Shown: positions 6,326-32,000 of the stretch, in pieces | How the letters are laid out: the number at the start of each line of letters is the position of its first letter | Numbering within the stretch: the stretch's first letter is position 1 | Assembly: GCA_027460535.1 (NCBI GenBank) | Contig: JAPZAR010000027.1 | Coordinates: 90,001 to 122,000 of the forward strand | Length of the DNA: 32,000 nucleotides | Direction: 5' to 3' | Origin: Candidatus Methanoperedens sp. | Lineage (GTDB): Archaea > Halobacteriota > Methanosarcinia > Methanosarcinales > Methanoperedenaceae | Made by a program: the position numbers and the translations under genes | The notes under the pieces: generated by a model | The model's database searches: none | Told to the model about the DNA's origin: nothing | What the model saw: only the letters and a program-made list of their open reading frames with translations

Positions 6326-6592
6326 ATGTTATTCGTACTGTGGTTCCAGTGGGATCCTGAAAACACATCAAAACTTCTTGGACTCTGGAGAGAATTCAAA
6401 TATCCAAAAGAAGTGAAGTTGATAGGCCGATATCTCCTGATCGGAAGGCATGTCTCCATGGCAATATTTAATGCCCCGAATGAGGAAGCCATCCTGAAGA
6501 TAACCTACCCGTTCAGAGAATTGGGCGTTGTTCATATAAATCCAGCGTTACCTCTTGATGAATCACTGGAAATGATGGAAAAGATGGATTGA
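6326..6592 (+). CDS. Small conserved protein, DUF3303-like
   Basis: The 88-aa product is preceded by AAGGAGGTG 6-14 nt upstream. The pattern VKLIGRY...[13 protein letters not shown]...[15 protein letters not shown] resembles DUF3303. The gene sits 12 nt after flavodoxin and 10 nt before catalase. Confidence 0.5.
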
Positions 6593-6602
6593 GGGAATTT
6601 TA

Positions 6603-17194: not shown

Positions 17195-18211
17195 TTAAAC
17201 CGACACTTTGAATAATCCTGTTTCCAGTTCTTCTATCTTGAATTTTAAATCCAGGAACTCTTCTGTTACCCATATATTGGTCCGGGTGTGAGGTGTTATG
17301 AGCCGGGTTGTGAAAGAACCGTTTCCTGCCAGGGCAATAAAGGGGACTAACTGGTCGGCTAGATAGATATCCACGCCTGCACCGGCTTTCAATTCCGAAA
17401 TCATCGCAGAAGCTGCACTGCTGCCCACCTTCTCAGCTCTTAAGCCCCGTTCTCCCAGGGCGCCTGCGCCGATCGTTCCACACCAGAGGGTTATACCGCT
17501 TCCGATAGATGGATAGTTATTTACCTCGCGTAAAATTTCAGTTCTGTAGCCTTCCGCCTGCAATATTTTTTCTGCAGATGCTGCCTGTCTTTCAGTTACA
17601 TGTCCGGGTAAACCTGATGAATGGGATATTCCTTTCACGATCTCACATGTATTTCTGTCAAAACTCATTTTTCCCAGGACAGATGGATTGATCACAGCTT
17701 CCACACATCCTCCACCACGCGGATAATAGCCTCTGCGAACAAGTTCCAGCTCGCAGTCATATCCCATCCTGGATAAAGCAAATAGCGTCACGAACCTGAG
17801 ATAATCGATCGACGGGGACCATGAGACATCTGTCCCGCCTGTTATCTTTAGCTTAATGGTTCCCTGCGCGTGGCAGGCGGCAGGCATGAGACATTGAAGA
17901 AGAAGAGATATGCTGCCGGCTGTACCTATATCGATATCGTACATCCCGCCTTTAATTCTTCCGGGCCTAAAATTCAGGTGAGTGGAATGCAGATCGCACC
18001 CTTTTACCTCTGCGTTGCAGATGGATGCAGCTCCCTTCACAGCTTTCACATGCTGTGGTGCGAGCCCCGGTTTTGGCCTATTCTTGCGGATATTATCTAT
18101 CTCGACAGGCTTTCCCGTGACAGCCGAAAGCGCAACTGCCGTTCTCAATATCTGACCCCCGCCTTCGCCGTATGACCCATCTATCTTCACAGATGCATCA
18201 TTGTTCTGCAT
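17195..18211 (-). CDS. rtcA: RNA 3'-terminal phosphate cyclase
   Basis: Matching segments are IDGSYGEGGGQILRTAVALSAVTGKPVEIDNIR..RPKPGLAPQHV and GTAGSISLLLQ. The product is 338 aa. Confidence 0.9.
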   Translation of the reverse strand: MQNNDASVKIDGSYGEGGGQILRTAVALSAVTGKPVEIDNIRKNRPKPGLAPQHVKAVKGAASICNAEVKGCDLHSTHLNFRPGRIKGGMYDIDIGTAGSISLLLQCLMPAACHAQGTIKLKITGGTDVSWSPSIDYLRFVTLFALSRMGYDCELELVRRGYYPRGGGCVEAVINPSVLGKMSFDRNTCEIVKGISHSSGLPGHVTERQAASAEKILQAEGYRTEILREVNNYPSIGSGITLWCGTIGAGALGERGLRAEKVGSSAASAMISELKAGAGVDIYLADQLVPFIALAGNGSFTTRLITPHTRTNIWVTEEFLDLKFKIEELETGLFKVSV

Positions 18212-19685: not shown

Positions 19686-20639
19686 ATGGTCATTAAAACC
19701 GAGAATCTTACCAAAAGATACGGAAAAATAACAGCCGTAGACTCTCTTGATCTTCACATCGAAGAGGGTGAGATCTTCGGGCTTCTCGGGCCGAATGGCG
19801 CAGGAAAGACCACGCTTATCTCAATGCTCTGCACTATTTTGAAGCCCACATCAGGCAAGGCATGGGTGAATGGTTTTGACATCGTTCGGGAATCGGCAAA
19901 GGTCAGGAAATCTATAGGCATCGTTTTCCAGCAGCCAAGCGTTGACGACCTGCTCACGGGACGAGAGAACCTTGCAATGCACAACCTCCTTTTTGGGGTG
20001 CCCCGTGATATACGAAAGCAGCGCATCGATGAGGTCCTCTCGCTTGTGAACCTGGAAAAGCGGGCGGACGACCTGGTAAACACTTACTCTGGCGGCATGA
20101 GGCGCAGACTTGAACTTGGGCGCGGGGTAATGCACCACCCCAAAATACTTTTCCTGGATGAGCCAACGCTCGGTCTTGACCCGCAGACAAGAGAACACAT
20201 CTGGGAATATATCCAGGACCTTGCGAAAAAGGAATGCATGACCGTCATGCTGACCACGCATTATATGGAAGAGGCTGAACAGTTATGCGACAGGGTCGCA
20301 ATAATTGATTACGGCAGAGTTGTTGCACTTGATTCCCCGCACACACTAAAAAATAGGATTGTCGGAGATGTAGTTAAACTGAAACAGAAGTATCCAGATA
20401 TTGAAACGGTAAGAAAGCTCGATTATGTAAAAAATGTCCAGGAAAAAGATGGTTTGCTGTATCTTTCCATCAAAGATGCAAGCAAGCATCTGCAGGACCT
20501 CCTCAGCCACACGGGCCCCATAGATTTCGTGGAAGTGAGAAGCGGTACGCTCAACGACGTGTTCCTGCATTATACGGGAAGGGAGATACGGGAATCTGAA
20601 GGTGAAGGCGGTTTCTGGGAAAGGGTGATGAAGAAATGA
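19686..20639 (+). CDS. ABC transporter ATP-binding protein (ABC-2/DrrA-type)
   Basis: Walker A is GLLGPNGAGKTT, the signature motif is YSGGMRRRL, and Walker B is ILFLDEPTLGLD. Confidence 0.9.
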   Translation: MVIKTENLTKRYGKITAVDSLDLHIEEGEIFGLLGPNGAGKTTLISMLCTILKPTSGKAWVNGFDIVRESAKVRKSIGIVFQQPSVDDLLTGRENLAMHNLLFGVPRDIRKQRIDEVLSLVNLEKRADDLVNTYSGGMRRRLELGRGVMHHPKILFLDEPTLGLDPQTREHIWEYIQDLAKKECMTVMLTTHYMEEAEQLCDRVAIIDYGRVVALDSPHTLKNRIVGDVVKLKQKYPDIETVRKLDYVKNVQEKDGLLYLSIKDASKHLQDLLSHTGPIDFVEVRSGTLNDVFLHYTGREIRESEGEGGFWERVMKK

Positions 20640-21394
20640 GCCTGCTTATGAATGAACTTGAGGGAATGTACGCAGTCTGGCTTCGTGAGGCTAAGATTTA
20701 TGTCAGGGAAAAGGAACGGCTCATATCTTCGGCAGTCTCACCGCTTCTCTGGATATTCGGTTTCGGAACGGGTATAGGGGCAAACCTGAAATCTATCGAG
20801 GGATTACCATACCAGGTTTTTATCTATCCCGGGATAGTGGTCATGGCGGTATTGTTCACATCACTCTTCTACGGGATATACATAATCTGGGACCGGAAGC
20901 TTGATTTTCTAAAAGAAGTGCTGGTAGCGCCTGTATCAAGAGCCAGTGTGTTCGCGGGAAAGGTGTTGGGCGGAGCAACAGATGCAATGGTGCAGGTGAT
21001 ATTTCTTCTGATAATCGGTCTTCTAATAAGTATCCCATTGACGCCGATCAGAATCATTGAAGCGTTTCTCATGCTCCTTTTAATCTCCATTGCAATGGTA
21101 AGCATTGGTTTAGTGATAGGCGCAAACCTGCAGAGCCCGGAAGGTTTTGGGCTTGTGATTAACTTTGTCATGTGGCCCATGTTCTTCTTTAGCAATGCCC
21201 TGTTTACGTTGGAAAGTACACCCAGATGGCTTAGCACGCTGATATATATCAATCCTTTAACGTATGGAGTGGATGCTGTGCGCGGCATTATCCTTGGTAT
21301 CAATCATTTTCCATTCTATCTTGATGTAGCAGTAATGATGATTTTTGCAGCGATAATGATGGTCCTGGGAGTGTTGAGCTTCAGGAGAATGTAA
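20636..21394 (+). CDS. ABC-2 type transporter permease
   Basis: The 252-aa product has about six hydrophobic spans. Its ATG overlaps the ATPase stop codon (ATGA at 20636-20639). Confidence 0.85.
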   Translation: MSLLMNELEGMYAVWLREAKIYVREKERLISSAVSPLLWIFGFGTGIGANLKSIEGLPYQVFIYPGIVVMAVLFTSLFYGIYIIWDRKLDFLKEVLVAPVSRASVFAGKVLGGATDAMVQVIFLLIIGLLISIPLTPIRIIEAFLMLLLISIAMVSIGLVIGANLQSPEGFGLVINFVMWPMFFFSNALFTLESTPRWLSTLIYINPLTYGVDAVRGIILGINHFPFYLDVAVMMIFAAIMMVLGVLSFRRM

Positions 21395-22611
21395 TGTTGA
21401 AACTTTTTAACACTTTCACACGCAGAAGAGAGAAATTTGAGCCCCTGGGTGATATTGTTGGGATTTACACATGCGGGCCATCGGTGTACCAGTACGCACA
21501 CATAGGGAATTTCAGGACTTTCATATTTGAAGACGTGCTGGTCAGGTACCTCAGGTTCAAAGGTTTCAGGGTTAAGAGAGTAATGAACCTGACCGATATC
21601 GAGGACAAGGCATTGACAACTGCCAGGAAAGAGGGAAAATCCTTGAAGGAATTGACGGAATTTTATTCTAAAGTGTTCTTTGAGGACATGAAAACCTTAA
21701 ATCTCCTGCCTGCAGATGTTTTCCCAAGAGCTACGGAACATGTCCCGGAGATCATCAAAATTATCAAAAAACTAATGGAAAACGGTTATGCTTATTGCGG
21801 AACCGATGGCTCGATATACTACGATGTATCCAAATTCAAGGGCTGGGGAAAACTCTCACATCTGAAGCTTAAACCCGGGAAGAAGAAAATAAAGCGCGAT
21901 GAATGGGGGGAGGAATCGGCAATAATCTCTGATTTCGCGCTATGGAAATCATACGAAAAAGAGGACGGAGATGTTTTCTGGGAAACCGAACTGGGTAAAG
22001 GGCGTCCTGGCTGGCATATCGAGTGTTCAGCAATGTGTTCCAGGCATCTTGGGACACGGTTTGATTTACATATAGGAGGCGTGGACAATATTTTTCCGCA
22101 TCATGAGAACGTGATAGCCCAGAATTTTGGCGCTTTCGGCGAAAACCCATCGCGATACTGGCTCCATTGCAGGCACCTTATGGTTGACGGGAAGAAGATG
22201 TCAAAATCTGCGGGGAATTTCTTTACCACACGTGACCTTCTTGATAAAGGATACAAACCAATGGCAATAAAATATCATCTTTTATCTATGAATTACAGGA
22301 GAAGGCTTAATTTTACATTCCAGGGGCTTGAGGAGGCGGGGAAAAAACTTGAAAGAATCCAGAGCATCATTGAAAGGTTAAAGACGGCCGAAGGTACAGA
22401 AGATGCCGAGAAAATAGCCAGGAGAGCTGGAAAGAAATTTGAGCAGAGTCTGGATGATAACCTGAACACGGGTAAGGCTTTAAAAATATTGGAAGAGTTT
22501 ACCGAAGAGATCGGAACTATCAATCCTGACAAAAGGTCTTTGGAAAAGATCCTTGAGACCTTTAAAACCATGGATTCGATACTGGGATTAGACCTGTTTA
22601 AACCCTCTTGA
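21394..22611 (+). CDS. cysS: Cysteine--tRNA ligase (short form, 405 aa)
   Basis: The HIGH-type motif is CGPSVYQYAHIGNFRTF, and KMSKS appears as GKKMSKSAGNF. Zn/Cys-binding contexts are TCGP, WHIECSAM and HIGGVDNIFPHHEN. The ATG shares one base with the permease stop codon (TAATG). Confidence 0.9.
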   Translation: MLKLFNTFTRRREKFEPLGDIVGIYTCGPSVYQYAHIGNFRTFIFEDVLVRYLRFKGFRVKRVMNLTDIEDKALTTARKEGKSLKELTEFYSKVFFEDMKTLNLLPADVFPRATEHVPEIIKIIKKLMENGYAYCGTDGSIYYDVSKFKGWGKLSHLKLKPGKKKIKRDEWGEESAIISDFALWKSYEKEDGDVFWETELGKGRPGWHIECSAMCSRHLGTRFDLHIGGVDNIFPHHENVIAQNFGAFGENPSRYWLHCRHLMVDGKKMSKSAGNFFTTRDLLDKGYKPMAIKYHLLSMNYRRRLNFTFQGLEEAGKKLERIQSIIERLKTAEGTEDAEKIARRAGKKFEQSLDDNLNTGKALKILEEFTEEIGTINPDKRSLEKILETFKTMDSILGLDLFKPS

Positions 22612-22936
22612 TCTGCATTTCCCTCTTCTTGGGCTGAAGCTGGAGAAGCAGCGCCTTGAGTTTAGCATCGTCTATCTTCGTTGCAAGCCTTCCGCTCTGG
22701 GCAAGGGTGACCAACTGCGCCTCAACGCTTGCCACAAGTTCGGGTTTTGTCATTTTGAGTGTATTTAAACGCTCCCGTGCTTCTGGCGTGAGTATCTGGC
22801 GCATGACAGACTGCTTTTTTGCCTCATACTCGGCACGCGCCGCCTCCTGCTGCGATGCCTGTGCCTGCGCATTATACTGCTGCTGCTGCAGCTGCTCAAG
22901 CTTGCGCTTTCTTAGCTCATCGAGTTCATCGTCCAT
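22598..22936 (-). CDS. PDCD5/TFAR19-like double-stranded DNA-binding protein
   Basis: Matching segment: MDDELDELRKRKLEQLQ...QSVMRQILTPEARERLNTLKMTKPELVASVEAQL. The ATG at 22936 is preferred over the TTG at 22942. The 3' end overlaps cysS convergently by 14 nt. Confidence 0.8.
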   Translation of the reverse strand: MDDELDELRKRKLEQLQQQQYNAQAQASQQEAARAEYEAKKQSVMRQILTPEARERLNTLKMTKPELVASVEAQLVTLAQSGRLATKIDDAKLKALLLQLQPKKREMQIKRV

Positions 22937-22938
22937 AT

Positions 22939-23388
22939 TCAATATTTTGCGATAGCCGGATTGGATTTTATCAGTTCTGTTTTTACATCATTTGCCGCAT
23001 TATCTAAAAACGACTGACCCTGCGGCGAGACTGTCCTGCCGGTTTTCTGCGCTTTTACGAAACCTGCTTTCTCAAGCTGCTGGAGCGCCTCTCTCGCAAC
23101 GGATCCGCTCCCTTTCGAGAAATGATGAGGCTTAACTCCATTCCTGTGCCTTCCGCCGTAGAAACTCCGCAGGCGTGAGACGCCAACGGGCCCATCGATA
23201 TAGATCCGCCTCAATATCGAAGCGCACCTGACGAACCACCAGTCAGGACTATCAGGCGAAAGCTCCTTATGGGCGCCGGTCTTGGCATAGCTGGCCCACT
23301 CCGGGGGGTTGGTTTTCTGTTCATTTTTTAGTTTCTGTGCCACATTTTTTATTAGCATCTCTGCGGGCACGTCATATACTGTTGTCAA
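22939..23388 (-). CDS. rps19e: 30S ribosomal protein S19e
   Basis: Matching segments are TVYDVPAEMLIKNVAQKLK, PEWASYAKTGAHKE, DWWFVRCASILRRIY and GVSRLRSFYGG. The TTG start at 23388 is supported by GGAGGATCAACA immediately upstream. Confidence 0.9.
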   Translation of the reverse strand: MTTVYDVPAEMLIKNVAQKLKNEQKTNPPEWASYAKTGAHKELSPDSPDWWFVRCASILRRIYIDGPVGVSRLRSFYGGRHRNGVKPHHFSKGSGSVAREALQQLEKAGFVKAQKTGRTVSPQGQSFLDNAANDVKTELIKSNPAIAKY

Positions 23389-23522: not shown

Positions 23523-23777
23523 TTACCCTTTTCGGCGAAATACCGCGGTATTTCCCCTTACTTCTATAAGGTCTGAATTTGTCAGGTCCGCCAGTTTCAC
23601 TGCCATATCCTGCTTATTCCCTTCAGCGATCGCGGATTTAAGGAATTTGACTTTTATCAGCTTTTTTAGCTTTAATTGCTTTTTTAATTCTTCCGCCATG
23701 CTCTCGATACCTGACTTGCCCACCTGAAGGGAGGGTTCAATGAGAGTAGCATCTGCCCTGGATTCCTGCCTTTTCAT
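23523..23777 (-). CDS. YhbY/CRM-domain RNA-binding protein
   Basis: The 84-aa product shows LQVGKSGIESMAEELKKQLKLKKLIKVKF...LIEVRGNTAVFRR. The ATG overlaps the Roadblock stop codon (ATGA). Confidence 0.75.
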   Translation of the reverse strand: MKRQESRADATLIEPSLQVGKSGIESMAEELKKQLKLKKLIKVKFLKSAIAEGNKQDMAVKLADLTNSDLIEVRGNTAVFRRKG

Positions 23778-24142
23778 TTCAATATCTCTTTGAGCTTTTC
23801 CGCAGCCTTGTCCAGCTCGAGAAGGATCAATCCCAGCCCTGTGTCTGTATTTACAATCGCCATTAGAAGAGCCTTGGGCCCGGCACCTACTGCGATAAGG
23901 CGTCCGCGCTCCGATTCCACAATAACCCTGTGGGGCACGCCCTGCCCGAGCTCCGTCGTTGCTGTCTCTGCTGCCCCGAGCATGGTGGCCGACATTGCAG
24001 CGAAGGACTCTGCAAATTGCTCTTTTTGGAGGATCGCACGAATAAGTAACCCGTCACGGCTTGCCGCGGCACAGGCTTCCACGCCCCCGACTTTCTTCAG
24101 GTCTGAAAGTATTTTGTCCACCATGTCAATGGTATCGGGCAT
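23774..24142 (-). CDS. Roadblock/LC7 (MglB-like) domain protein
   Basis: The 122-aa product shows L..VGGVEACAAASRDGLLI......FAAMSATMLGAAE......RVIVESERGRLIAVGAGPKALLMAIV. The start shares a base with the upstream stop codon (TGATG). Confidence 0.8.
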   Translation of the reverse strand: MPDTIDMVDKILSDLKKVGGVEACAAASRDGLLIRAILQKEQFAESFAAMSATMLGAAETATTELGQGVPHRVIVESERGRLIAVGAGPKALLMAIVNTDTGLGLILLELDKAAEKLKEILK

Positions 24143-25311
24143 CAGATTCCTCCTGTAATCTTGTCTATTAACACTTCAAATGCTTCATATACCCCGATTT
24201 TATCTTTTGCAACTGCGGGGACGATAGGCACGTCAGTAGGTAAATTGAACTGCTTTCTTATCTCTTCAGGGGTCAAAGCTCCTGCCAAATCCTGTTTATT
24301 GGCTATGATTACATAAGGCAACCCATAGGATTTCGTGATCTCAAGCATCTGTTTTGCGCGGATAAAATCTGTCGGATTCGTGGAATCCACGACAAGAAAG
24401 ATACCCATGGATTCTCCGCTCAATAGTTTTATGATAGGATCGAACCTCTCCTGGCCCGGTGTGCCGAAGATATCGGCGCTGAAACCCTTATATTCAACAT
24501 GGCCATGGTCAAGGGCGATTGTAGTGCCCAGCCTGTCAACGGAAATAGCCCTGGTTGAAAGTGCATGCACAAACGAGGATTTTCCGGCATCAAATGGCCC
24601 TGTAACAAGGATTTTTGGTATGAATAATTTTATTCCTCCAGGGCGCAATACCCTGAAAAGCATGGATTTCTTCGTTTCTTTTGCCCATGACGATTTAAGT
24701 ATCCCGAAATACTGCCCGAAAATGACGCGTTCCGCTATGCCGCCAATGGATATGACCGCATCGAACAGGTCTGTTCTAATGAGGTCCAGGGTTTCCTGGG
24801 AATACGGCCATGCAGTGAAATTATAGACCATCACATGATCATATAACATTGCCATTTTATTCCAGCCCCTTACAGCTTCGATGGTTTCTTTCTCACCGCA
24901 TAAATCCATTACGGTAGAGAGAGATCCGAACACGATGGTGCTTGGCGGCAATTCTTTTATTACATCCATTATCACATTATTGAAATTCTCAATGTTGTCA
25001 GGATTCGATACAACGTATTTCTCCTTTGAAGGTGCTCCAATCAGTGGATTATAAGCATCCACAAAAAAGAAATTATCTTTGTAAGGATTGAAATCCCAGC
25101 CAAACTCCTTGAACTGTCCCCTGATAATATCAGGTATGGTACTTGAGACAACAAATGCGCAGGTTCCACCAGTTTTTAGTGTGGTGTAAACTGTTTGCAT
25201 CCCGAAAACTTCGCCTTCTACACCTGGCTGGATATAATAAACGAGACTCTTTCCTTTTGGTATACCCCCTCCCAGAAATTCGTCGAGCTTTGGGATACCA
25301 GTCTCCGCCAT
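24142..25311 (-). CDS. Fusion protein: N-terminal KaiC/RecA-like domain lacking Walker A/B plus C-terminal small Ras/Arf-like GTPase (COG2229/MglA-like)
   Basis: The N-terminal domain (about 24619-25311) begins GIPKLDEFLGGGIPKGKSLVYYIQPGVEGEVFG, which is KaiC-like but has no GK[ST]. The C-terminal domain (about 24145-24618) has G1 GPFDAGKS, G3 DIFGTPGQERF and G4 NKQD. The start is set at the ATG at 25311, with GGGAG about 10 nt upstream. The ORF-track start is a TTG five codons earlier. Confidence 0.75.
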   Translation of the reverse strand: MAETGIPKLDEFLGGGIPKGKSLVYYIQPGVEGEVFGMQTVYTTLKTGGTCAFVVSSTIPDIIRGQFKEFGWDFNPYKDNFFFVDAYNPLIGAPSKEKYVVSNPDNIENFNNVIMDVIKELPPSTIVFGSLSTVMDLCGEKETIEAVRGWNKMAMLYDHVMVYNFTAWPYSQETLDLIRTDLFDAVISIGGIAERVIFGQYFGILKSSWAKETKKSMLFRVLRPGGIKLFIPKILVTGPFDAGKSSFVHALSTRAISVDRLGTTIALDHGHVEYKGFSADIFGTPGQERFDPIIKLLSGESMGIFLVVDSTNPTDFIRAKQMLEITKSYGLPYVIIANKQDLAGALTPEEIRKQFNLPTDVPIVPAVAKDKIGVYEAFEVLIDKITGGI

Positions 25312-25312
25312 G

Positions 25313-26017
25313 CTACTTTCTCCCAACTATTTTTATATTAGCTCCTTCTAACTCATATTCAAGCCATGGAGTGGGTTTCGGGGAAAGCCCAACCGCTCTT
25401 ATGAAATTTTTGTCATTTTCTGATTTTATCTCTATCATGCCGTCGAACAGCTGTTTCAATGTCGCGATAGCCTGCTCATCATGCATACCGCTCTCTATTA
25501 CATAGATTCCGAGAGCACCTGCAGCTTTGATGCGTCCGGTAAAAACATGGATGAACCTGAAGACGGTTTGGATATTTGAATACATCAATATTGTAGAAAG
25601 CGAATTAATATGAAGCTGGGTTTTCCGGATATTCTTTTTCATAAAGAAATCCTCGAAGAACTGGCTGATCTTTACCCCTATCCCTGTCAAGTCTACCGGG
25701 CTGCTTGCTATTTTTATATTCTCATTCTCAATAGCTGCCCCACCCAGCGTTTTTGTGACGCAATCAACGATCCCTACCCTGGATAGCGGCAATGCAAGTT
25801 TGTTTTCCTTGAACCATTCCAGAATATGTGTTGCAGATTCACGGGTGGTGACCGTTATCACTGCATTCTCATTCTTTGCGGCGCCGTTATACATTATGTA
25901 ATACAGGATGACTTCCTTTCCGCTCATGGGAGGGCCTATCAGCATGATATTCGAGCCCTTTTTTATACCACCTATTGCAATATCCAGTTCTTTGATACCA
26001 GTTGTATAATCACTCAT
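25313..26017 (-). CDS. Single-domain KaiC/RecA-superfamily (FlaH/GvpD/RAD55-like) protein with deviant Walker motifs
   Basis: The pattern is TGIKELDIAIGGIKKGSNIMLIGPPMSGKEVIL. Walker A is GPPMSGKE, with Glu after Lys. The Walker B position reads QLHINSLS, with Asn where Asp is expected. The stop codon lies 1 nt before the next ATG. Confidence 0.75.
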   Translation of the reverse strand: MSDYTTGIKELDIAIGGIKKGSNIMLIGPPMSGKEVILYYIMYNGAAKNENAVITVTTRESATHILEWFKENKLALPLSRVGIVDCVTKTLGGAAIENENIKIASSPVDLTGIGVKISQFFEDFFMKKNIRKTQLHINSLSTILMYSNIQTVFRFIHVFTGRIKAAGALGIYVIESGMHDEQAIATLKQLFDGMIEIKSENDKNFIRAVGLSPKPTPWLEYELEGANIKIVGRK

Positions 26018-26059
26018 CTTTATGCCTTTAGTACCGATAATACTATTTAAATTTTAGTA

Positions 26060-26067
26060 TATATAAA
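26060..26067 (-). promoter_or_regulatory. Candidate archaeal TATA box for the KaiC-like/GTPase operon
   Basis: The minus strand reads TTTATATA, the methanogen TATA consensus, 43-50 nt upstream of the ATG at 26017. This rests on sequence only, with no TSS data. Confidence 0.3.
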
Positions 26068-26142: not shown

Positions 26143-26544
26143 TTAGACTTTATACAAATAAAATCTAGTTTTTTTATAATTTATTAGCTTATAATTTTTA
26201 AAGAACCTGCTCAGATCAGCCTTTTCATTACCGAATGGTCTGATAAGCAGGTCCGCTCCGACTTCTTCCGCAATTTTGGCCATGGCTTCCTGAAAGTCGA
26301 TGGGCGGTCTTATCGAATAAATAAGGGACGCATTTTTATAAATCCCGATGCTGGGATCGAATACATCATCCCTGAAAAACCTGACCCCAGCATATTCCCG
26401 GTCGATTATGTCTGTTACGACAACTTCGATCGTATCTTTCAGTAAAAGAGCGACCTCGGGTCTGCTACCCACTCCGACCTCCACCACTTTCTCGCTGTAG
26501 TTTTTCAGTATATATTCTGAAAGATCTTCGTAATCTGAAATCAT
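26143..26544 (-). CDS. UPF0146 family protein (Rossmann/SAM-MTase-like fold)
   Basis: The 133-aa product shows KVVEVGVGSRPEVALLL...VVVTDI...DDVFDP...IYKNASLIYSIRPP, typical of archaeal UPF0146. Confidence 0.75.
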   Translation of the reverse strand: MISDYEDLSEYILKNYSEKVVEVGVGSRPEVALLLKDTIEVVVTDIIDREYAGVRFFRDDVFDPSIGIYKNASLIYSIRPPIDFQEAMAKIAEEVGADLLIRPFGNEKADLSRFFKNYKLINYKKTRFYLYKV

Positions 26545-26905: not shown

Positions 26906-29020
26906 ATGGAAACAAATGAATCCCCCAAATTAAAAGCTCTATCAGATATCTCGTCAATAGATATTGCTCTTGATTTTAATGAGATCCTTCCAAAAATACT
27001 GAAAATCATGTGCGAAGCGATGAGGGCACATTCAGGAACCATCATGCTTGTCAATGGAAGTAATGATGAACTGAGGATGGTGGCTGCGTATGGATTGCCT
27101 AGCGACTATATCGAAAGGGTATATAATGCTGCAAAAAAAGCAAATGTGCTCATATCCTCAAGCCCTTCAGGGACAGCATTAATCACAAGAAAATATTACT
27201 CTGTTCCGAACGTTTTCGAAGAACCCAAAAATATACCCTGGACACATTTAGCAAGAGAACTTGGTTTTTCAGCCCAGATATTCGCTCCCATGAAAAAGGG
27301 GCAAAAAGTCATTGGTCTCCTGAATGTTTACATGACAGACCCGCATCAGTTTACGGACGAAGAGATCAATTTTGTTACAATTGCAGCATCACAGGCTTCT
27401 TCAGTGGTCCAGAATGCAAGAATATGCGGCCAATTGAAAGATAATGTTCTGGAACTTAATAAATACAAGGAGCAGCTTGAAGAGAAAATAAATGAAACAC
27501 ATAAAAAATTATATAATTCTGAGAGATATCTGAGGGCAATAATTGAATCTTCGCTTGATGGAATAGCAGTGGTGGATGATCAGGGCAGATTTGAGTTCGG
27601 CAATGATTCGCTCTTTGACATCCTAGGCTGGCCGAGAGAAGAAATAATCGGCCAGGTTTTCACAAAGATAATCCCCGAAGATATGCTGGAATTTATGCAG
27701 GAACGCTGGAGTGAGATTCAAAATGGGATCGAGATTCCTTATGAAACTAAAATTAGAACAAAAAAAGGGGAAATAAAATATATATATCTATCCCCTGCGA
27801 AAACAGAATTTGATGGAAAAATAAAATATATAGGGATCAGTAAGGACATCTCAGAAAATAAGAAACTTGAATTGAATCTGAAAGAATCCGAGGTCAGGTA
27901 CAGGGACCTCTTTGAGAACGCCGACGACCCCATGTACACAATGGATACAGAGGGTTACTTCAAAGAAATAAATAATGCGGGACTGGATATATTTGGAGGA
28001 ATAGAGGAAGAAGTTATAGGATCTCATATATCAAGATGGCTGACACCGGAGAGTTCTATAATAGCTCAGGAACTCCTGACAAGACAAATATCAGGCGAAC
28101 CCTGGAACCAACCAATAATCCTTGAAGTGATCCGCAAGAACGGGGAGCACAGGTGGGGTGAGATAAAAACAAGGGTTATTAAGAAGGATGGCAGGGTAAA
28201 TGCAATCCACGGCATTGCAGGGGATATAACTGAAAAAAGGAAGATGGAACAGAAGCTCAAGGAATACAATGAAAAATTAGAAAAATCCTACGAATCTCTC
28301 AAGGAAGCCGATAGAATAAAGACTGAATTCATCTCGAATATAACCCATGAATTATTTACACCTCTGACATCGATTAAAGGATTTGCTGAATTGATCCACG
28401 ATGGGACAGTGGGCAGGATCAATGACCAGCAAAAAAAGAGCCTGGAAGCCATCCTTCGGAACTCAAACAGGCTGATCGGGTTGATCAAAGAATTACTGGA
28501 CACAGCATATCTAGAAAAAAATAAGTTTGGACTTCAATTCGGTCTAACTTCAATAAATGAGATTATCTCAAGATCCATCAAGGACATTCAGCCCCTGGCA
28601 AAAGAGAAGGAAATCTCGATAATCCTTGATATGAAACAGCTTCCGAAAGTCTGGGGGGATGAAGGAAGACTCATCCAGGTGATAATAAACCTGCTTATCA
28701 ATGCGGTAAAATTCACACCGCAAAAAGGAATTATAACAATTACTGCATTTGATGGCCCAAAAGGTATCATTATCCGAATAATAGATACGGGCATCGGTAT
28801 CCCCTCTGATAAACTTGACCGCATATTTGACAGGTTCTACCAGGTAGATGGTTCAACTAGTAGAAAATACGGGGGAGTCGGTCTTGGACTTTCGATATGC
28901 AGGAGCATAATAGAAAAACACTTCGGTTCCATCTGGGCAGAGAGTAATAGCAAGGGAAGCACATTTAATATAACGCTGCCCAAATTGTCACAAAGCAAGA
29001 AAGAAGACTTGGAGGATTGA
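26906..29020 (+). CDS. Cytoplasmic sensor histidine kinase, GAF-PAS-PAS-HisKA-HATPase_c
   Basis: There are no TM segments. The N-terminal GAF-like region is followed by two PAS regions (RAIIESSLDGIAVVD... and YRDLFENADDPMYTMD...). The H-box is FISNITHELFTPLTSI, the N-box is LLINAVKFT, and the G-boxes are IDTGIGI and GGVGLGLSI. Confidence 0.9.
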   Translation: METNESPKLKALSDISSIDIALDFNEILPKILKIMCEAMRAHSGTIMLVNGSNDELRMVAAYGLPSDYIERVYNAAKKANVLISSSPSGTALITRKYYSVPNVFEEPKNIPWTHLARELGFSAQIFAPMKKGQKVIGLLNVYMTDPHQFTDEEINFVTIAASQASSVVQNARICGQLKDNVLELNKYKEQLEEKINETHKKLYNSERYLRAIIESSLDGIAVVDDQGRFEFGNDSLFDILGWPREEIIGQVFTKIIPEDMLEFMQERWSEIQNGIEIPYETKIRTKKGEIKYIYLSPAKTEFDGKIKYIGISKDISENKKLELNLKESEVRYRDLFENADDPMYTMDTEGYFKEINNAGLDIFGGIEEEVIGSHISRWLTPESSIIAQELLTRQISGEPWNQPIILEVIRKNGEHRWGEIKTRVIKKDGRVNAIHGIAGDITEKRKMEQKLKEYNEKLEKSYESLKEADRIKTEFISNITHELFTPLTSIKGFAELIHDGTVGRINDQQKKSLEAILRNSNRLIGLIKELLDTAYLEKNKFGLQFGLTSINEIISRSIKDIQPLAKEKEISIILDMKQLPKVWGDEGRLIQVIINLLINAVKFTPQKGIITITAFDGPKGIIIRIIDTGIGIPSDKLDRIFDRFYQVDGSTSRKYGGVGLGLSICRSIIEKHFGSIWAESNSKGSTFNITLPKLSQSKKEDLED

Positions 29021-29809
29021 ATGTTCGATGCCGGAATTGAGTCGGGCAGGTTTGCCGCTTCTTTTTACAAAAGCTGGATAATGGCTAAAAGGAATTTTTT
29101 TACCATATTTGAAGTCTTATTCTGGCCATTCATAGGCCTTATGTCCATAGGCCTTATGGCTAATTTTTTATCAATGAGCCCCAATGCCATTTCTTTCATC
29201 CTTATAGGTGCGATCGCATTCAGCATTGTTCAGGTATGCCAGATTGATGTCGCGTATGTTATGCTTTTTGATATGTGGAGCAAAAGCATAAAACATACCT
29301 TCATAGCGCCTGTAAGGGGCTATCACCTGATTATCGGTTCACTCCTCTTCGGCATATTAAGAGGGACTATTGTCTCCATTATCCTGGTTATACTCAGCTT
29401 TTATGCGTTCGGTTTTAATTTTTTTGCTGCAGGTGTGATACCCATTATTGTTTTTTTAGCAGGGCTTTTCCTGACCTCTGCAGCTATAGGTATTCTGGTT
29501 TGCATCTCAATCCTCCTGTTCGGCCAGCGCGCTGAAGTGGCCGCATGGACAATGACCGGCATAATGATGTTCATCTGCGGGATTTATTATCCTGTTACAG
29601 TGCTTCCGGAAAGTATCCAGGTGATTGCACGCGCAATCCCGCTTACTTATTTCCTTGAATACATGCGTTCATTTTACGGCTTCGGTGCCGCAAATGTAAC
29701 TCTCGGATTTGCCCTGGCTATATTTTATTTCGCGGCAGGCATTATCGCGCTTGACAGAGCGATCATGAGGGCAAGGCGCTCAGGCATATTGCTGCGGCTC
29801 TCCGAGTGA
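29021..29809 (+). CDS. ABC-2 type permease-like integral membrane protein (no cognate ATPase adjacent)
   Basis: The 262-aa product has about six TM spans and a PLTYFLEYMR motif region typical of ABC-2 permeases. The ATG immediately follows the kinase stop codon (TGAATG). Confidence 0.75.
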   Translation: MFDAGIESGRFAASFYKSWIMAKRNFFTIFEVLFWPFIGLMSIGLMANFLSMSPNAISFILIGAIAFSIVQVCQIDVAYVMLFDMWSKSIKHTFIAPVRGYHLIIGSLLFGILRGTIVSIILVILSFYAFGFNFFAAGVIPIIVFLAGLFLTSAAIGILVCISILLFGQRAEVAAWTMTGIMMFICGIYYPVTVLPESIQVIARAIPLTYFLEYMRSFYGFGAANVTLGFALAIFYFAAGIIALDRAIMRARRSGILLRLSE

Positions 29810-29936: not shown

Positions 29937-31130
29937 TTATTTCATATTTTTTGACAATTCCGTCAGCGATTCCATGTATCTTTTGGATTGTTCCAAACCT
30001 GAGATTTTTCTATCTTCATAATTTTTGATGACTGTCCCTGCAGCCAATCTGATGTGTGGAGTTCCATCATTTACAATCTCGACTGCTACTATGCTGTTCA
30101 ATAATAACAAAATACATACCATAATTGCATATGGCTTCATCAGTTTTTCATTAATTGCGATCAAGCCCCATGGAATTATTGGAATCAGGTAGGGAACCTT
30201 GTACGGAAAAATGAAATAGGATGAAACAAAGATAAACCCCGTCAACCAACAGAAATTCAATAATTGTTTGCGCTCAATGAACTGTCTATTTTTAGGACTG
30301 AATATCACAAAAAAAATGAGAAATATTAAGGCAACTATACCAAATAATTCCATAATCATGTTATTAAATGATACTCCAACGGAAACAGAAAGCATGGATA
30401 TGGGCTTCATGATGGGAGTAGTAGAGAGATATCCGGAGCCGTGAAGAAATTCAAGTTCATATTTGCTGAATACGGGCCAGAACAATAACAATGCTGTAAT
30501 GACAGATATAGACACGAAAGCTAAGGCTTCCCTGATATTTCCTTTTTCCGAAAAAGCCCAAAATAGAATAGGAATTATCATAAATGCTGAGGTGAACCTC
30601 ATTCCAACTGAAAATCCAATGGCAATTCCTGCAATGGAATATTTAGACTTGAATGCAAGATAGCTCCCCAGCAAAATGAACATAAGAGCCCACATATAAT
30701 CCATGGTTATCACGCTATTTATCCATAGAAGAGGGAAAAAGGCAAAAGCAATTACGAGTAATGCTCTATTTTCTATTTTAAAAATGTTCAATATCTTGCC
30801 AAAAACTACTACTGATATAAACGAAACAATCATTGTTGCAGTGTTTGTGGCAATCCAGCCATTCTGAATGAAAAGTGCATTCGCAAATTCGTAAAGTGGG
30901 TATCCTGGGAAGCGTGACACGGTATAAACATGATTATATCTGATAAGAAATGCTGAATTCACCACTGACAGCGTGTCATAATCAGTTTTAGAACTGAAAG
31001 TGCTGAAACCGAGGTTTATGAAAGGGATACGTGAAATGAAAAATATTAAGGCCAGAATAACGACTGAGGGAAAATTCGTTAAATCGTAATTTAATAAATC
31101 TTTTTCAATCCTAGGCAATTTGAACATCAC
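29937..31130 (-). CDS. Polytopic membrane protein, GT-C-type glycosyltransferase-like (PMT_2/ArnT-like; tentative)
   Basis: The 397-aa product has at least 10 hydrophobic spans and a first-loop acidic/aromatic region (KTDYDTLSVVNSAF...RFPGYPLYEF). There is no WWDYG motif, so it is not AglB. Confidence 0.45.
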   Translation of the reverse strand: MMFKLPRIEKDLLNYDLTNFPSVVILALIFFISRIPFINLGFSTFSSKTDYDTLSVVNSAFLIRYNHVYTVSRFPGYPLYEFANALFIQNGWIATNTATMIVSFISVVVFGKILNIFKIENRALLVIAFAFFPLLWINSVITMDYMWALMFILLGSYLAFKSKYSIAGIAIGFSVGMRFTSAFMIIPILFWAFSEKGNIREALAFVSISVITALLLFWPVFSKYELEFLHGSGYLSTTPIMKPISMLSVSVGVSFNNMIMELFGIVALIFLIFFVIFSPKNRQFIERKQLLNFCWLTGFIFVSSYFIFPYKVPYLIPIIPWGLIAINEKLMKPYAIMVCILLLLNSIVAVEIVNDGTPHIRLAAGTVIKNYEDRKISGLEQSKRYMESLTELSKNMK

Positions 31131-31162
31131 TTCAATATTGCATGGTTTATTATTAAAGCAAT

Positions 31163-31196
31163 CTAAAAAAGAAAAGGTGAAGGGATCTCTCCCTTC
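31163..31196 (-). terminator. Hairpin plus T-rich tract terminator candidate after the S-layer gene
   Basis: On the minus strand, GAAGGGA-GAGA-TCCCTTC (31179-31196) starts 13 nt after the stop codon. It is followed by ACCTTTTCTTTTTTAG. Confidence 0.5.
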
Positions 31197-31208
31197 GATT
31201 TTATTTAT

Positions 31209-32000
31209 TTACTTTCTCTGTCTCAACACGAGGTAAGCTACTGCGAGCAATCCTGCGATCGCGAAGACTGCCTGGAATCCAGGCTCTTTTGGAGTCGCTG
31301 TTGCTGCTGCTGGCTTGGCTGTCTCAGTGACCGCCGGTGCCGTTGTTTCAACTACTGTTGCTGCGACGGTAGCATTGCCCGTTGGCTTCATACCTGTTCC
31401 AGTTGGTGTAACAGATCCTGTGACTGTGACTCCCGTGCCTGTTGGTCCTGGACCAGCGCCGATCTGGTAATCTACCACTGGGTAGTACCTCAAATCGGTG
31501 GCGCTGTCTGCCACTCTGAACTTCATTTCACCCATGATGTCAACAGTTCCGTCCTGGGTAAGGTCCACTGATTTATCTTTGTTCTTCAGTACAAGGGTAT
31601 CGGCACCTGCACTTGTTACTTCCATGTTGCCAAATACATCAGCACTCTTAACTTCTGTGACTGACGTACCTATCGCCCATGTATATCTCAACTGCACCAT
31701 ATCGCTTGTGGCACCAGCAAATACGCTGTCGACATAGGTAACGAACAATGGAACATCTGTCTCGCCTGCAAAGCTCTTCTCTATATAGGTATAAACTCCG
31801 CCCTGTGCAATTACCTTATCGTCTTTCTTGACGCCGTCCTTGCTTAGGACAAGCCATGCCTGTCTTGGAGTTGCTTTGGCATCAATGCTCTGGGCTGATA
31901 ATGTCCAGCCATCTCCAATGTCCCAGGTCTCTCCGACCGTCAGTGACTTCTTTTCATTAGTGGCATTGCCCTGCTCGATTATAAGCTTGGCTAATTTCTT
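31209..32000 (-). CDS. S-layer family protein (DUF1608-type domain) with PGF-CTERM anchor; 5' end outside window
   Basis: I extended the frame by hand, and it stays open to base 32000. The extended region reads ...GETWDIGDGWTLSAQSIDAKATPRQAWLVLSKDGVKKDDKVIAQGGVYTYIEKSFAGETDVPLFVTYVDSVFAGATSDMVQLRYTW...KFRVADSATDLRYYP. A Thr/Pro/Gly/Ala linker follows, then PGFQAVFAIAGLLAVAYLVLRQRK. The start at 31748 in the ORF track is an internal TTG. Confidence 0.8.
   Translation of the reverse strand, partial: KKLAKLIIEQGNATNEKKSLTVGETWDIGDGWTLSAQSIDAKATPRQAWLVLSKDGVKKDDKVIAQGGVYTYIEKSFAGETDVPLFVTYVDSVFAGATSDMVQLRYTWAIGTSVTEVKSADVFGNMEVTSAGADTLVLKNKDKSVDLTQDGTVDIMGEMKFRVADSATDLRYYPVVDYQIGAGPGPTGTGVTVTGSVTPTGTGMKPTGNATVAATVVETTAPAVTETAKPAAATATPKEPGFQAVFAIAGLLAVAYLVLRQRK

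What the first reader, a model, noticed from the sequence alone, without database searches (positions are those of the whole stretch)
23523..26017. Tightly coupled operon: KaiC-like protein, KaiC-like::small-GTPase fusion, Roadblock/LC7 and YhbY (candidate uncharacterised archaeal GTPase switch)
Four minus-strand genes are packed with overlapping or abutting stop and start codons. The junctions are TAG-c-ATG at 25311-25315, TGATG at 24140-24144 and ATGA at 23774-23777, which implies co-translation and probably a physical complex. The components are as follows. (1) A 234-aa single-domain KaiC/RecA-superfamily protein. (2) A 389-aa protein whose first 230 aa or so are a second KaiC-like domain and whose last 155 aa or so are a small GTPase, with G1 GPFDAGKS, G3 FGTPGQ and G4 NKQD. 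(3) A Roadblock/LC7 protein. (4) A YhbY/CRM RNA-binding protein. A small Ras-like GTPase paired with a Roadblock protein is the logic of bacterial MglA/MglB (GTPase plus GAP). It is also the logic of eukaryotic Rag/Ragulator-type modules built on Roadblock folds. Covalent fusion of such a GTPase to a KaiC-like platform, paired with a second KaiC-like protein, is not an architecture I can assign to any characterised system. The arrangement would let a RecA-like hetero-oligomer scaffold or gate a GTPase/GAP pair.
Basis: partly seen in the sequence, partly recalled or inferred. Interest (0 to 1): 0.8.

Follow-up and report, generated by a model that had tools for sequence, protein, structure and literature searches.

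The report
KaiC-scaffolded small GTPase–Roadblock operon
A Methanoperedens operon encodes an Arf-like small GTPase fused to a dead KaiC-like domain, a second KaiC-like protein, a Roadblock regulator and a YhbY RNA-binding protein; its three-gene core recurs across many archaeal lineages, no study of its function was found, and it offers a way to learn how archaeal small GTPases are regulated.

Summary
Four minus-strand genes at 23523-26017 have junctions of +1, -1 and -4 nt. Two TATA-box matches lie upstream of the first gene.

- **Domains:** all four domain calls hold by profile search, and both KaiC-like parts also hold by fold.
- **KaiC-like parts:** both are degenerate. The fusion's N-domain has lost Walker A and Walker B. 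KaiC1 reads GKE, RE and N where KaiC has GKT, EE and D.
- **GTPase domain:** it is intact and of the MglA2-5 type (TT in G2, GTPGQ in G3). Its closest solved relatives are Arf-like proteins.
- **Conservation:** the fusion family has roughly 90 full-length clusters at 50% identity. Every named source organism is archaeal. In 35 non-redundant loci, a Roadblock gene lies within 2.6 kb in 33 and a separate KaiC-like gene in 32.
- **Variable partners:** V4R genes occur in 8 of 35 loci. PAS-only sensors are embedded in three modules and adjacent to others.
- **YhbY:** it is confined to the Methanosarcinales clade of the window, but it stays attached there in four different downstream contexts.

Best reading: a KaiC-like platform carrying a GTPase–Roadblock switch. 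No physical complex or output has been shown. I found no functional characterisation, but the key comparative paper (Makarova 2017) could not be read. I rate it a new variant of a known kind, interest about 0.6.

The parts
26044..26067 (-). Putative archaeal promoter. Two perfect TATA-box consensus matches: TTTATATA at 26067-26060 and TTTAAATA at 26051-26044, which lie 50 and 34 nt upstream of the KaiC1 ATG.
   Evidence: These are the only zero-mismatch TTTAWATA matches upstream of any of the four genes. They sit in the 125-nt gap after UPF0146. This is a consensus match only; the transcription start was not mapped.
25313..26017 (-). KaiC1: a 234-aa single-domain KaiC/RecA-fold protein with a degenerate active site. 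Walker A is GPPMSGKE (25913-25936), the catalytic EE is RE, and the Walker B Asp is Asn.
   Evidence: Pfam DUF7504 at 8e-25 and KaiC at 3.7e-10. AF2 model with pLDDT 75 and pTM 0.73. Foldseek matches to FlaH 4yds, SSO2452 and PH0284 with TM 0.70-0.78. Motif alignment to KaiC. Conserved upstream of the fusion.
24628..25311 (-). Fusion protein residues 1-228: an inactivated KaiC-like (iKaiC) domain. QPGVEGEV replaces Walker A (25207-25230) and VFGSLS replaces Walker B.
   Evidence: Pfam KaiC at 64.3 bits. The phmmer alignment to PH0284 pairs GPGTGKT with QPGVEGE and VVVDSV with IVFGSL. Foldseek to 2dr3 gives TMt 0.80 over 226 columns. Walker A is absent in nearly all family members.
24142..24627 (-). 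Fusion protein residues 229-389 plus stop: a small GTPase of the MglA2-5 / Arf-like type. G1 GPFDAGKS is at 24577-24600, G2 TT at 24520-24525, G3 GTPGQ at 24451-24465 and G4 NKQD at 24289-24300.
   Evidence: Pfam Ras and Arf, and NCBIfam small_GTP at 52.2 bits against a cut-off of 42.5. G1, T264 and GTPGQERF are invariant in the 33-sequence alignment A3; the NK of G4 is at least 90% conserved. The best PDB match of the domain profile is Asgard HodArfR1 8OUL at 5e-18. The TT and GTPGQ signature defines MglA groups 2-5 (PMC4316618).
23774..24142 (-). Roadblock/LC7 (MglB-like) protein of 122 aa. Its start overlaps the fusion stop by 1 nt, and an AGGAGGA Shine-Dalgarno sequence lies upstream.
   Evidence: Pfam Robl_LC7 at 50 bits. 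PDB matches: Asgard RB 7f8m at 1e-17, CvnB5 3leq at 1e-5 and MglB at about 0.06. A Roadblock gene is directly adjacent to the fusion in 29 of 35 non-redundant loci and within 2.6 kb in 33 of 35. G31 of the DG pair is 100% conserved.
23523..23777 (-). YhbY/CRM RNA-binding protein of 84 aa. Its start overlaps the Roadblock stop by 4 nt (ATGA). It is a clade-specific fourth gene of the operon.
   Evidence: Pfam CRS1_YhbY at 57.6 bits. It follows Roadblock in all Methanoperedens loci and also in L036, L050-L053, L055 and L058, which have four different downstream neighbours. It is absent from more distant modules.
25309..25315 (-). Junction TAG-c-ATG between KaiC1 and the fusion (gap of 1 nt).
24140..24144 (-). 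Junction TGATG between the fusion and Roadblock (1-nt overlap).
23774..23777 (-). Junction ATGA between Roadblock and YhbY (4-nt overlap).

Best explanation
The operon encodes a small-GTPase switch mounted on a KaiC-like platform.

Shown:
- The 389-aa protein joins a catalytically dead KaiC/RecA-fold domain to a complete Ras-superfamily GTPase of the MglA2-5 / Arf-like type. The linker is short and conserved (PGG...YIPKILVTGP).
- The upstream gene encodes a second KaiC-fold protein. It keeps the P-loop lysine but has lost the Walker A Ser/Thr, one catalytic Glu and the Walker B Asp.
- The downstream gene encodes a full-length Roadblock protein. This is the family of MglB and CvnB, the partners of MglA-type GTPases.
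- These three genes travel together across many archaeal lineages.

Inferred:
- KaiC1 and the dead KaiC domain co-assemble into a RecA-like hetero-oligomer, probably a ring, that displays the GTPase domains.
- A Roadblock dimer docks on the switch regions of the GTP-bound domain and sets its hydrolysis or exchange rate, as MglB does for MglA.
- The state of the KaiC-like platform gates that interaction. In Methanoperedens the relevant state would be nucleotide occupancy only.
- In other lineages it could be ATP turnover or autophosphorylation by Walker-A-intact KaiC paralogues. There the input could come from operon-encoded PAS-only or V4R proteins.

The output is unknown. In the window's clade the translationally coupled YhbY suggests an RNA- or ribosome-linked target.
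For: - Domain identity and motif state.
- MglA2-5 signature: TT in G2 and GTPGQ in G3 are invariant in the 33-sequence alignment and defined in PMC4316618.
- Family size: about 90 full-length clusters at 50% identity.
- Named source organisms: Methanosarcinales, Methanomicrobiales (cultured Methanocalculus), Archaeoglobales, Thermoplasmata, Thermofilaceae, Altiarchaeota, Hydrothermarchaeota, Parvarchaeota and Woesearchaeota.
- Neighbourhood in 35 non-redundant loci: Roadblock adjacent in 29 and within 2.6 kb in 33; a separate KaiC-like gene in 32; one with intact Walker A in 17; V4R in 8.
- PAS-only proteins lie inside the module in L044, L065 and L084, and beside it in L070 and L077. TrmB-type regulators and a Cache-HAMP sensor are also nearby.
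- Pairwise identities of the fusion, Roadblock and KaiC partner co-vary: r = 0.93-0.96 overall, and 0.64-0.65 among pairs below 60% fusion identity.
- Operon structure and candidate promoter.
Against: - No direct evidence exists for any protein-protein contact, ring formation or GAP activity. Multimer modelling was not available.
- The single-chain model gives no confident inter-domain geometry: pTM is 0.58 and the linker pLDDT is below 50.
- MglA2-5 GTPases lack the intrinsic Arg finger of MglA1, and no catalytic residue is known in their Roadblock partners (PMC4316618). 'Roadblock = GAP' is therefore an extrapolation.
- Co-variation of identities mostly reflects co-inheritance, not interaction.
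- In Methanoperedens neither KaiC-like part looks able to hydrolyse ATP, so the platform may be purely structural.
- Two of the 35 loci have no Roadblock gene within 2.6 kb, and three have no separate KaiC-like gene.
Confidence: 0.6

Rival explanations
1. The module is a ribosome-biogenesis or translation-linked GTPase complex. The GTPase and its partners would act on pre-ribosomes or RNA together with YhbY, and the operon would belong functionally with the S19e and PDCD5-like genes downstream.
For: - YhbY is translationally coupled to Roadblock.
- It stays attached in four different downstream contexts within the clade.
- Neighbours in this clade are information-processing genes: S19e, a dsDNA-binding protein and CysRS in the window, and archease-like, TruD-like and RNase HII-like genes in relatives, judged by eye from their sequences.
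Against: - YhbY is absent from 29 of 35 non-redundant modules.
- Elsewhere the recurrent partners are PAS, V4R, TrmB and TPR proteins.
- The GTPase is Ras/Arf-like. Matches to ribosome-assembly GTPase models are far below cut-off, for example EngA at 19.9 bits against 306.7.
- A 134-nt gap separates YhbY from S19e.
Confidence: 0.12
2. The module controls motility, surface structures or cell polarity. It would be an archaeal counterpart of MglA/MglB control of type IV pili combined with an ArlH-like KaiC ATPase.
For: - The top structural match of KaiC1 is FlaH/ArlH, 4yds.
- Small proteins that look like pilins, judged by eye from a class III signal-peptide-like N-terminus, lie 1-4 kb upstream of the module in L066, L083 and L090.
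Against: - No archaellum or pilus genes occur in the window or in most loci.
- L064, of the same subtype, lacks the pilin-like genes.
- The resemblance to FlaH is shared with all single-domain KaiC-like proteins.
Confidence: 0.1
3. The KaiC-like proteins are RadA/Rad55-type recombination mediators, as some database names say ('recombinase RecA', 'RAD55 family ATPase'). The module would then act in DNA repair.
For: Source annotations. KaiC1 gives weak matches to RadA/Sms and DnaB models. SSO2452, a RadA paralogue, is a good structural match.
Against: - The best families are KaiC and DUF7504. The RadA and DnaB scores are far below cut-off (22 against 403 bits).
- The ATPase motifs are degenerate.
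- No DNA-repair genes are conserved near the module; the conserved partners are a GTPase and Roadblock.
Confidence: 0.05
4. The genes share an operon only for co-expression. The products act separately, and the domain fusion has no allosteric meaning.
For: Short overlaps are common in any operon (general knowledge). No interaction has been shown. The model gives no confident inter-domain packing.
Against: The fusion itself is conserved in about 90 clusters at 50% identity, with a conserved short linker. The three gene families stay adjacent through at least four rearranged gene orders and across many archaeal lineages.
Confidence: 0.08

Closest known systems
MglA/MglB GTPase-GAP pair of Myxococcus xanthus and Thermus thermophilus
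   Same: A Ras-superfamily GTPase is encoded next to a Roadblock-fold protein. The Roadblock protein matches MglB structures weakly (E about 0.06). The pairing is conserved, being adjacent in 29 of 35 loci.
   Different: The GTPase is of the MglA2-5 type (GTPGQ, with TT in place of the Arg finger), not group 1 (TVPGQ plus Arg). It is covalently fused to a dead KaiC domain. The Roadblock protein has 122 aa, shorter than the 160-192-residue MglB chains it matches. There is no RomR/RomX or Frz context.
Actinobacterial conservon (CvnA histidine kinase, CvnB Roadblock, CvnC, CvnD MglA-like GTPase)
   Same: It is a multi-gene signalling operon. An MglA2-5-type GTPase and its Roadblock partner are coupled to a nucleotide-using sensor or transducer protein (PMC4316618). 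CvnB5 (3leq) matches the window's Roadblock at 1e-5.
   Different: KaiC-like proteins stand where the histidine kinase stands. No CvnC (DUF742) homologue is present. The GTPase is fused, not free. The system is archaeal, not actinobacterial.
Archaeal single-domain KaiC-like proteins (ArlH/FlaH, PH0284, SSO2452) and inactivated 'iKaiC' domains
   Same: The fold is the same, with TM 0.7-0.8. The concept of inactivated KaiC domains fused to signalling domains is published (cited in PMC5847659).
   Different: Here the fusion partner is a small GTPase. Both KaiC-like proteins of the operon are degenerate. No KaiB-like gene was recognised among the annotated ORFs of the window or among the recurrent neighbour families.
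Rag GTPase-Ragulator, and Asgard Roadblock/longin-GTPase fusions
   Same: Small GTPases work with Roadblock-fold dimers on a scaffold. The nearest solved Roadblock structures are Asgard RB proteins (7f8m at 1e-17). V4R/TRAPPC3-fold proteins are sometimes in the neighbourhood (PMC10933270).
   Different: The GTPase is fused to a KaiC domain rather than to a Roadblock domain. The scaffold would be RecA-like rather than LAMTOR-like. There is no evidence of membrane association.
Elp4/5/6 hetero-hexameric RecA/KaiC-like ring (comparison from my own knowledge)
   Same: It is a precedent for several degenerate KaiC-like paralogues forming one hetero-oligomeric ring. KaiC1 gives a faint match to PAXNEB/Elp4 (E 0.008, below cut-off).
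   Different: There is no sequence-level membership, and Elp456 has no GTPase or Roadblock partner. This is an analogy only.

Membership tests
KaiC/RecA superfamily (KaiC1, 25313-26017) | RecA-like alpha/beta fold and a KaiC family profile match | tested here: met
   PF06745 at 40.0 bits against a cut-off of 26.6, and DUF7504 at 88.8 bits. Foldseek TM 0.70-0.78 to FlaH, SSO2452 and PH0284.
KaiC/RecA superfamily (KaiC1) | Walker A GxxxxGK[ST], catalytic Glu pair and Walker B Asp | tested here: not met
   Aligned to KaiC, GTPGTGKT pairs with GPPMSGKE, FEES with TRES, and VIDS with HINS. The Lys is kept. GKE, RE and N each occur in about half of the 76 adjacent KaiC partners examined, a set dominated by Methanoperedens-clade loci. 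Distant orthologues have GK[ST] and D.
Bona fide circadian KaiC | Tandem CI-CII domains, autophosphorylation sites and a KaiB partner | tested here: not met
   KaiC1 is a single domain of 234 aa. NCBIfam circ_KaiC scores 16.8 bits against a cut-off of 546. No KaiB-like gene was recognised among the annotated ORFs of the window. Phosphorylation is not testable here.
KaiC/RecA superfamily (fusion residues 1-228) | Fold | tested here: met
   PF06745 at 64.3 bits. Foldseek to 2dr3 gives TMt 0.80 and rmsd 3.0 over 226 columns.
KaiC/RecA superfamily (fusion residues 1-228) | Walker A and Walker B | tested here: not met
   PH0284 GPGTGKT aligns with QPGVEGE, and VVVDSV with IVFGSL. Walker A is missing in nearly all of the 89 family members checked.
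Ras superfamily small GTPase | G1 GxxxxGK[ST], G2 Thr, G3 xxxGQ, G4 [NT]KxD | tested here: met
   GPFDAGKS, T263/T264, GTPGQ and NKQD. TIGR00231 scores 52.2 bits against a cut-off of 42.5. The motifs are invariant or near-invariant in the family.
MglA group 1 (bacterial MglA/SofG) | Intrinsic Arg finger next to the G2 Thr, and G3 TVPGQ | tested here: not met
   G2 is TT and G3 is GTPGQ. Criteria are from PMC4316618.
MglA groups 2-5 (MglA2-5) | Thr in place of the Arg finger, G3 GTPGQ, and a coupled MglB/Roadblock gene | tested here: met
   TT and GTPGQ are invariant. Roadblock is adjacent in 29 of 35 loci. No phylogenetic placement was done. The family is defined on single-domain proteins, whereas this one is fused.
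Arf family / ArfR | N-terminal amphipathic helix and a G3 of the WDxGGQ type with the Asp kept | tested here: not met
   The N-terminus is the KaiC-like domain, and G3 lacks the Asp. The best PDB profile matches are nevertheless ArfR, Arl and Arf at 5e-18 to 1e-15. It is therefore similar to Arf proteins but not a member.
Roadblock/LC7 (MglB-like) | Robl_LC7 profile at full length | tested here: met
   PF03259 at 50.0 bits against a cut-off of 23. It aligns end to end with Asgard RB 7f8m (residues 2-121 with 2-120). The conserved Gly of the DG pair is 100% conserved.
MglB (NCBIfam equivalog NF052242) | Score at or above the equivalog cut-off | tested here: not met
   19 bits against a cut-off of 200.
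MglB-type GAP | Stimulates GTP hydrolysis by the partner GTPase | not testable with these tools
   This needs biochemistry or a multimer model.
YhbY/CRM | CRS1_YhbY domain | tested here: met
   PF01985 at 57.6 bits against a cut-off of 27. The YhbY equivalog TIGR00253 scores 45.9 bits against 78.5, so that cut-off is not reached.
Actinobacterial conservon | CvnA histidine kinase and CvnC (DUF742) in the operon | tested here: not met
   Neither is present among the four genes. The GAF-PAS histidine kinase at 26906-29020 is on the other strand, beyond UPF0146.
Known anti-phage defence systems (PADLOC) | A match to a defence-system protein model | tested here: not met
   The only match is a marginal P-loop hit of KaiC1 (mad8, E 6e-4). 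The other three proteins have no match.

The most novel reading that the evidence does not exclude
A hetero-oligomeric ring of pseudo-ATPase KaiC-like subunits carries Arf-like GTPase domains. It would serve as an archaea-wide GTPase signalling platform. Roadblock dimers would be the GAP, and where present V4R/TRAPPC3-fold proteins would be the exchange factor or ligand sensor. That would make it a prokaryotic forerunner of Ragulator/TRAPP-style GTPase regulation. In the Methanoperedens clade it would report to RNA or ribosome metabolism through YhbY.
Probability: 0.12. Interest if true: 0.85.

Novelty: new variant of a known kind. Interest (0 to 1): 0.6.

Why it matters
- **A defined pairing.** In Asgard archaea, GTPase genes are generally not in operons with Roadblock, longin or TRAPPC3 genes, so cognate pairs cannot be read from the genome (PMC10933270). 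This module supplies a conserved, operon-defined set: an MglA2-5 / Arf-like GTPase, its Roadblock partner, a KaiC-like platform, and in some lineages PAS or V4R/TRAPPC3-fold proteins.
- **An open catalytic question.** It makes the regulation and catalytic mechanism of MglA2-5 GTPases directly testable. These lack the known Arg finger.
- **A link between two ideas.** It would connect the proposed KaiC-centred archaeal signalling network with small-GTPase switching.
- **An experimental route.** The family occurs in cultured methanogens such as Methanocalculus.

Tried and rejected
1. I first concluded that YhbY belonged to the S19e cluster rather than to the module, because tblastn found it only in Methanoperedens loci. 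Iterated HMM searches overturned this. YhbY also follows Roadblock in L036, L050-L053, L055 and L058, where S19e is not downstream.
2. The profile search with the diverse alignment A1 still returned mostly Methanoperedens proteins, so it added little diversity for structure prediction.
3. The metagenome scan with A1 failed because no stretch was conserved enough. It worked with A3.
4. Makarova et al. 2017 (mBio, KaiC-like signalling hubs) could not be retrieved by DOI, PMC id or PubMed id. I could not check whether the fusion is already catalogued there.
5. Literature searches found no description of this architecture: KaiC + Roadblock + GTPase, KaiC + small GTPase + fused, and DUF7504/DUF7090/arCOG02603.
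6. Rfam found no RNA family in the window, and PADLOC found no defence system.
7. No V4R, second Roadblock or other small-GTPase gene was found among the annotated ORFs of the window.
8. The full-length Foldseek matches to two-domain KaiC have rmsd of 12-15 Å. They only reflect two P-loop domains in tandem, not homology of the GTPase to KaiC CII.

Full report
**1. Observation**

The window comes from a Candidatus Methanoperedens genome; the fusion protein is 100% identical to a protein named from that genus. The minus strand between 26017 and 23523 carries four ORFs:
- KaiC1, 25313-26017, 234 aa.
- A 389-aa fusion, 24142-25311.
- Roadblock, 23774-24142, 122 aa.
- YhbY, 23523-23777, 84 aa.

The gaps between them are +1, -1 and -4 nt. 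The one correction is that TAG-c-ATG spans 25309-25315.

The ATG start of the fusion is supported by the 389-aa length of nearly all close homologues listed.

The 125-nt region upstream of KaiC1 holds the only two perfect TTTAWATA matches near these genes, 50 and 34 nt before the ATG. A 134-nt gap separates YhbY from S19e, which itself overlaps a PDCD5-like dsDNA-binding gene by 4 nt. The four genes therefore look like one transcription unit. Read-through into S19e is not excluded.

**2. What the proteins are**

All Pfam calls exceed their gathering scores.

*KaiC1.*
- An AF2 model (pLDDT 75, pTM 0.73) matches FlaH/ArlH, SSO2452, PH0284 and KaiC domains at TM 0.70-0.78.
- Its active site is degenerate. 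Aligned to KaiC, it reads GKE for GKT, RE for EE and N for the Walker B Asp.
- The P-loop Lys is kept throughout the orthologues. Distant orthologues have canonical GK[ST] and D.

*Fusion, N-terminal domain (residues 1-228).*
- It matches PH0284 at TMt 0.80.
- It has QPGVEGE where PH0284 has GPGTGKT, and FGS where PH0284 has VDS.
- Loss of Walker A is nearly family-wide.

*Fusion, C-terminal domain.*
- It has all the G motifs.
- TT in G2 and GTPGQ in G3 are invariant in the 33-sequence alignment. These are the features by which Wuichet and Søgaard-Andersen define MglA groups 2-5, as opposed to MglA group 1.
- By profile, the closest solved relatives are the Asgard ArfR protein HodArfR1 (8OUL, 5e-18), Arl8, Arl3, Arf1 and Rabs.

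*Roadblock.*
- It is a full-length Roadblock protein.
- Its nearest solved relatives are Asgard RB structures (1e-17), CvnB5 (1e-5) and, weakly, MglB.

*YhbY.*
- It is a single CRM domain.

**3. Conservation**

- About 90 clusters at 50% identity have the full 360-430-aa fusion architecture.
- Named members come only from archaea: Methanosarcinales including ANME-2c, Methanomicrobiales (cultured Methanocalculus), Archaeoglobales, Thermoplasmata, Thermofilaceae, Altiarchaeota, Hydrothermarchaeota, Parvarchaeota and Woesearchaeota.
- All source names are generic.

I labelled ORFs in 127 loci with iterated HMMs and reduced them to 48 fusion clusters at 70% identity. Of these, 35 had at least 1.2 kb on both flanks:

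| Feature near the fusion | Loci (of 35) |
|---|---|
| Roadblock directly adjacent (under 150 nt) | 29 |
| Roadblock within 2.6 kb | 33 |
| At least one separate KaiC-like gene | 32 |
| Two or more separate KaiC-like genes | 14 |
| A KaiC-like gene with intact Walker A | 17 |
| V4R protein within 3.5 kb | 8 |
| YhbY within 2.6 kb | 6 |

Several gene orders exist:
- KaiC1(WA-)-fusion-Roadblock(-YhbY), the window's type.
- Roadblock-fusion-KaiC(WA+)-KaiC(WA+).
- KaiC(WA+)-fusion-Roadblock-KaiC1(WA-).
- KaiC1-fusion-Roadblock-Roadblock.

Other recurrent neighbours:
- PAS-only proteins lie inside the module in L044, L065 and L084, and beside it in L070 and L077.
- TrmB-type regulators, a Cache-HAMP sensor and TPR proteins also recur.

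Pairwise identities of the three core proteins co-vary. That fits inheritance as a unit.

**4. YhbY**

YhbY is confined to the clade with roughly 62% or more identity to the window's fusion. Within that clade it follows Roadblock regardless of what lies downstream:
- S19e in Methanoperedens.
- An archease-like gene in L053 and L058.
- A convergent EndoIII-like gene in L036 and L055.
- Unrelated genes in L050-L052.

The archease-like and EndoIII-like labels are by-eye readings of the sequences. YhbY is therefore a genuine but lineage-specific fourth member of the operon.

**5. Mechanism**

*Shown.* A dead KaiC domain is linked to an intact MglA2-5-type GTPase by a short conserved linker. A second KaiC-fold protein and a Roadblock protein are obligately co-encoded with it.

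*Inferred.*
- The two KaiC-fold parts form a hetero-oligomeric platform.
- Roadblock dimers regulate the nucleotide cycle of the tethered GTPase.
- The state of the platform gates this regulation. In Methanoperedens this would be nucleotide binding only. Elsewhere it could be ATP turnover by intact paralogues, with PAS or V4R inputs.
- The output is unknown. YhbY hints at RNA or ribosomes in this clade.

I put 0.6 on this class of explanation. The rivals are a ribosome-biogenesis role (0.12), motility or pilus control (0.10), recombination mediators (0.05) and mere co-expression (0.08).

**6. Comparison and novelty**

- The logic resembles MglA/MglB and the actinobacterial conservon. In the conservon, a histidine kinase accompanies an MglA2-5 GTPase and a Roadblock protein.
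- It also resembles the published idea of inactivated KaiC domains as archaeal signalling parts.
- It is not a member of MglA group 1, the Arf family, circadian KaiC or the conservon, because defining features were tested and not met.
- For archaeal group 4 MglA, the 2014 survey reported no conserved neighbours. That survey considered single-domain GTPases, so this fusion would have fallen outside it.
- I found no paper describing the fusion.

Verdict: a real, conserved module with no functional study found. It is a new variant of known kinds, with interest of about 0.6.

Noticed in passing
window 22598-23388 (-): The ribosomal protein S19e gene and a PDCD5-like dsDNA-binding protein gene overlap by 4 nt. 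They lie 134 nt downstream of YhbY on the same strand. This pair follows the operon in nearly all Methanoperedens-clade loci examined, but not in more distant relatives.
   Followed up: partly
window 21394-22611 (+) and 22598-22942 (-): The CysRS gene starts on the stop codon of the preceding ABC-2 permease gene, after an ABC ATPase and permease pair at 19686-21394. Its 3' end overlaps the 3' end of the convergent dsDNA-binding protein gene by 14 nt.
   Followed up: no
window 26143-26544 (-): A UPF0146 protein gene lies directly upstream of the operon. It is detected at the same position in only a subset of Methanoperedens loci (15 HMM hits), so it is probably not part of the module.
   Followed up: partly
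window 26906-29809 (+): A GAF-PAS-PAS-HisKA-HATPase histidine kinase gene has a stop that abuts the start of an ABC-2 permease gene (29020/29021). It is divergent from the operon region. A GAF-PAS protein also lies upstream of the module in L050, but no link was established.
   Followed up: partly
L045:4923-5663 and L046:4899-5654: Some Methanoperedens genomes carry a stand-alone paralogue of the fusion's dead KaiC domain (246-251 aa, 65-67% identical). It has a different N-terminus and no GTPase or Roadblock gene beside it.
   Followed up: partly
L038:3814-5451, L039:3404-4024 and 6539-7186, L042:6507-7097: V4R-domain (TRAPPC3/Bet3-fold family) proteins are encoded immediately after the Roadblock gene in several distant modules. 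L038 and L039 carry two fusion modules with extra Roadblock genes between them. TRAPP is a Rab exchange factor in eukaryotes, which makes this association worth testing.
   Followed up: partly
L066:905-1883, L083:981-1978, L090:3130-4228: Small proteins that look like type IV pilins lie 1-4 kb upstream of Roadblock-fusion-KaiC-KaiC modules. They have a class III signal-peptide-like N-terminus, for example ...KGQLPIEFLMIMG.... These modules also have a conserved TPR protein downstream.
   Followed up: partly
window 13982-15598 (-): An FAD amine-oxidase-like gene sits in the most GC-rich stretch of the window: 0.57 against 0.36-0.50 in the other 1-kb bins. It may have been acquired by horizontal transfer.
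   Followed up: no
window 8326-10074 (-) and 29937-31748 (-): There is a multihaem cytochrome with a TIG domain. Separately, a 397-aa ORF with no Pfam match lies next to an S-layer/PGF-CTERM fragment. Both are cell-surface features.
   Followed up: no
window 1677-2216 (-) and 17195-18211 (-): A KH-domain protein of the Krr1/Pno1 type and an RNA 3'-phosphate cyclase (RtcA) are encoded in the window. They add to the RNA- and ribosome-related gene content of the region.
   Followed up: no
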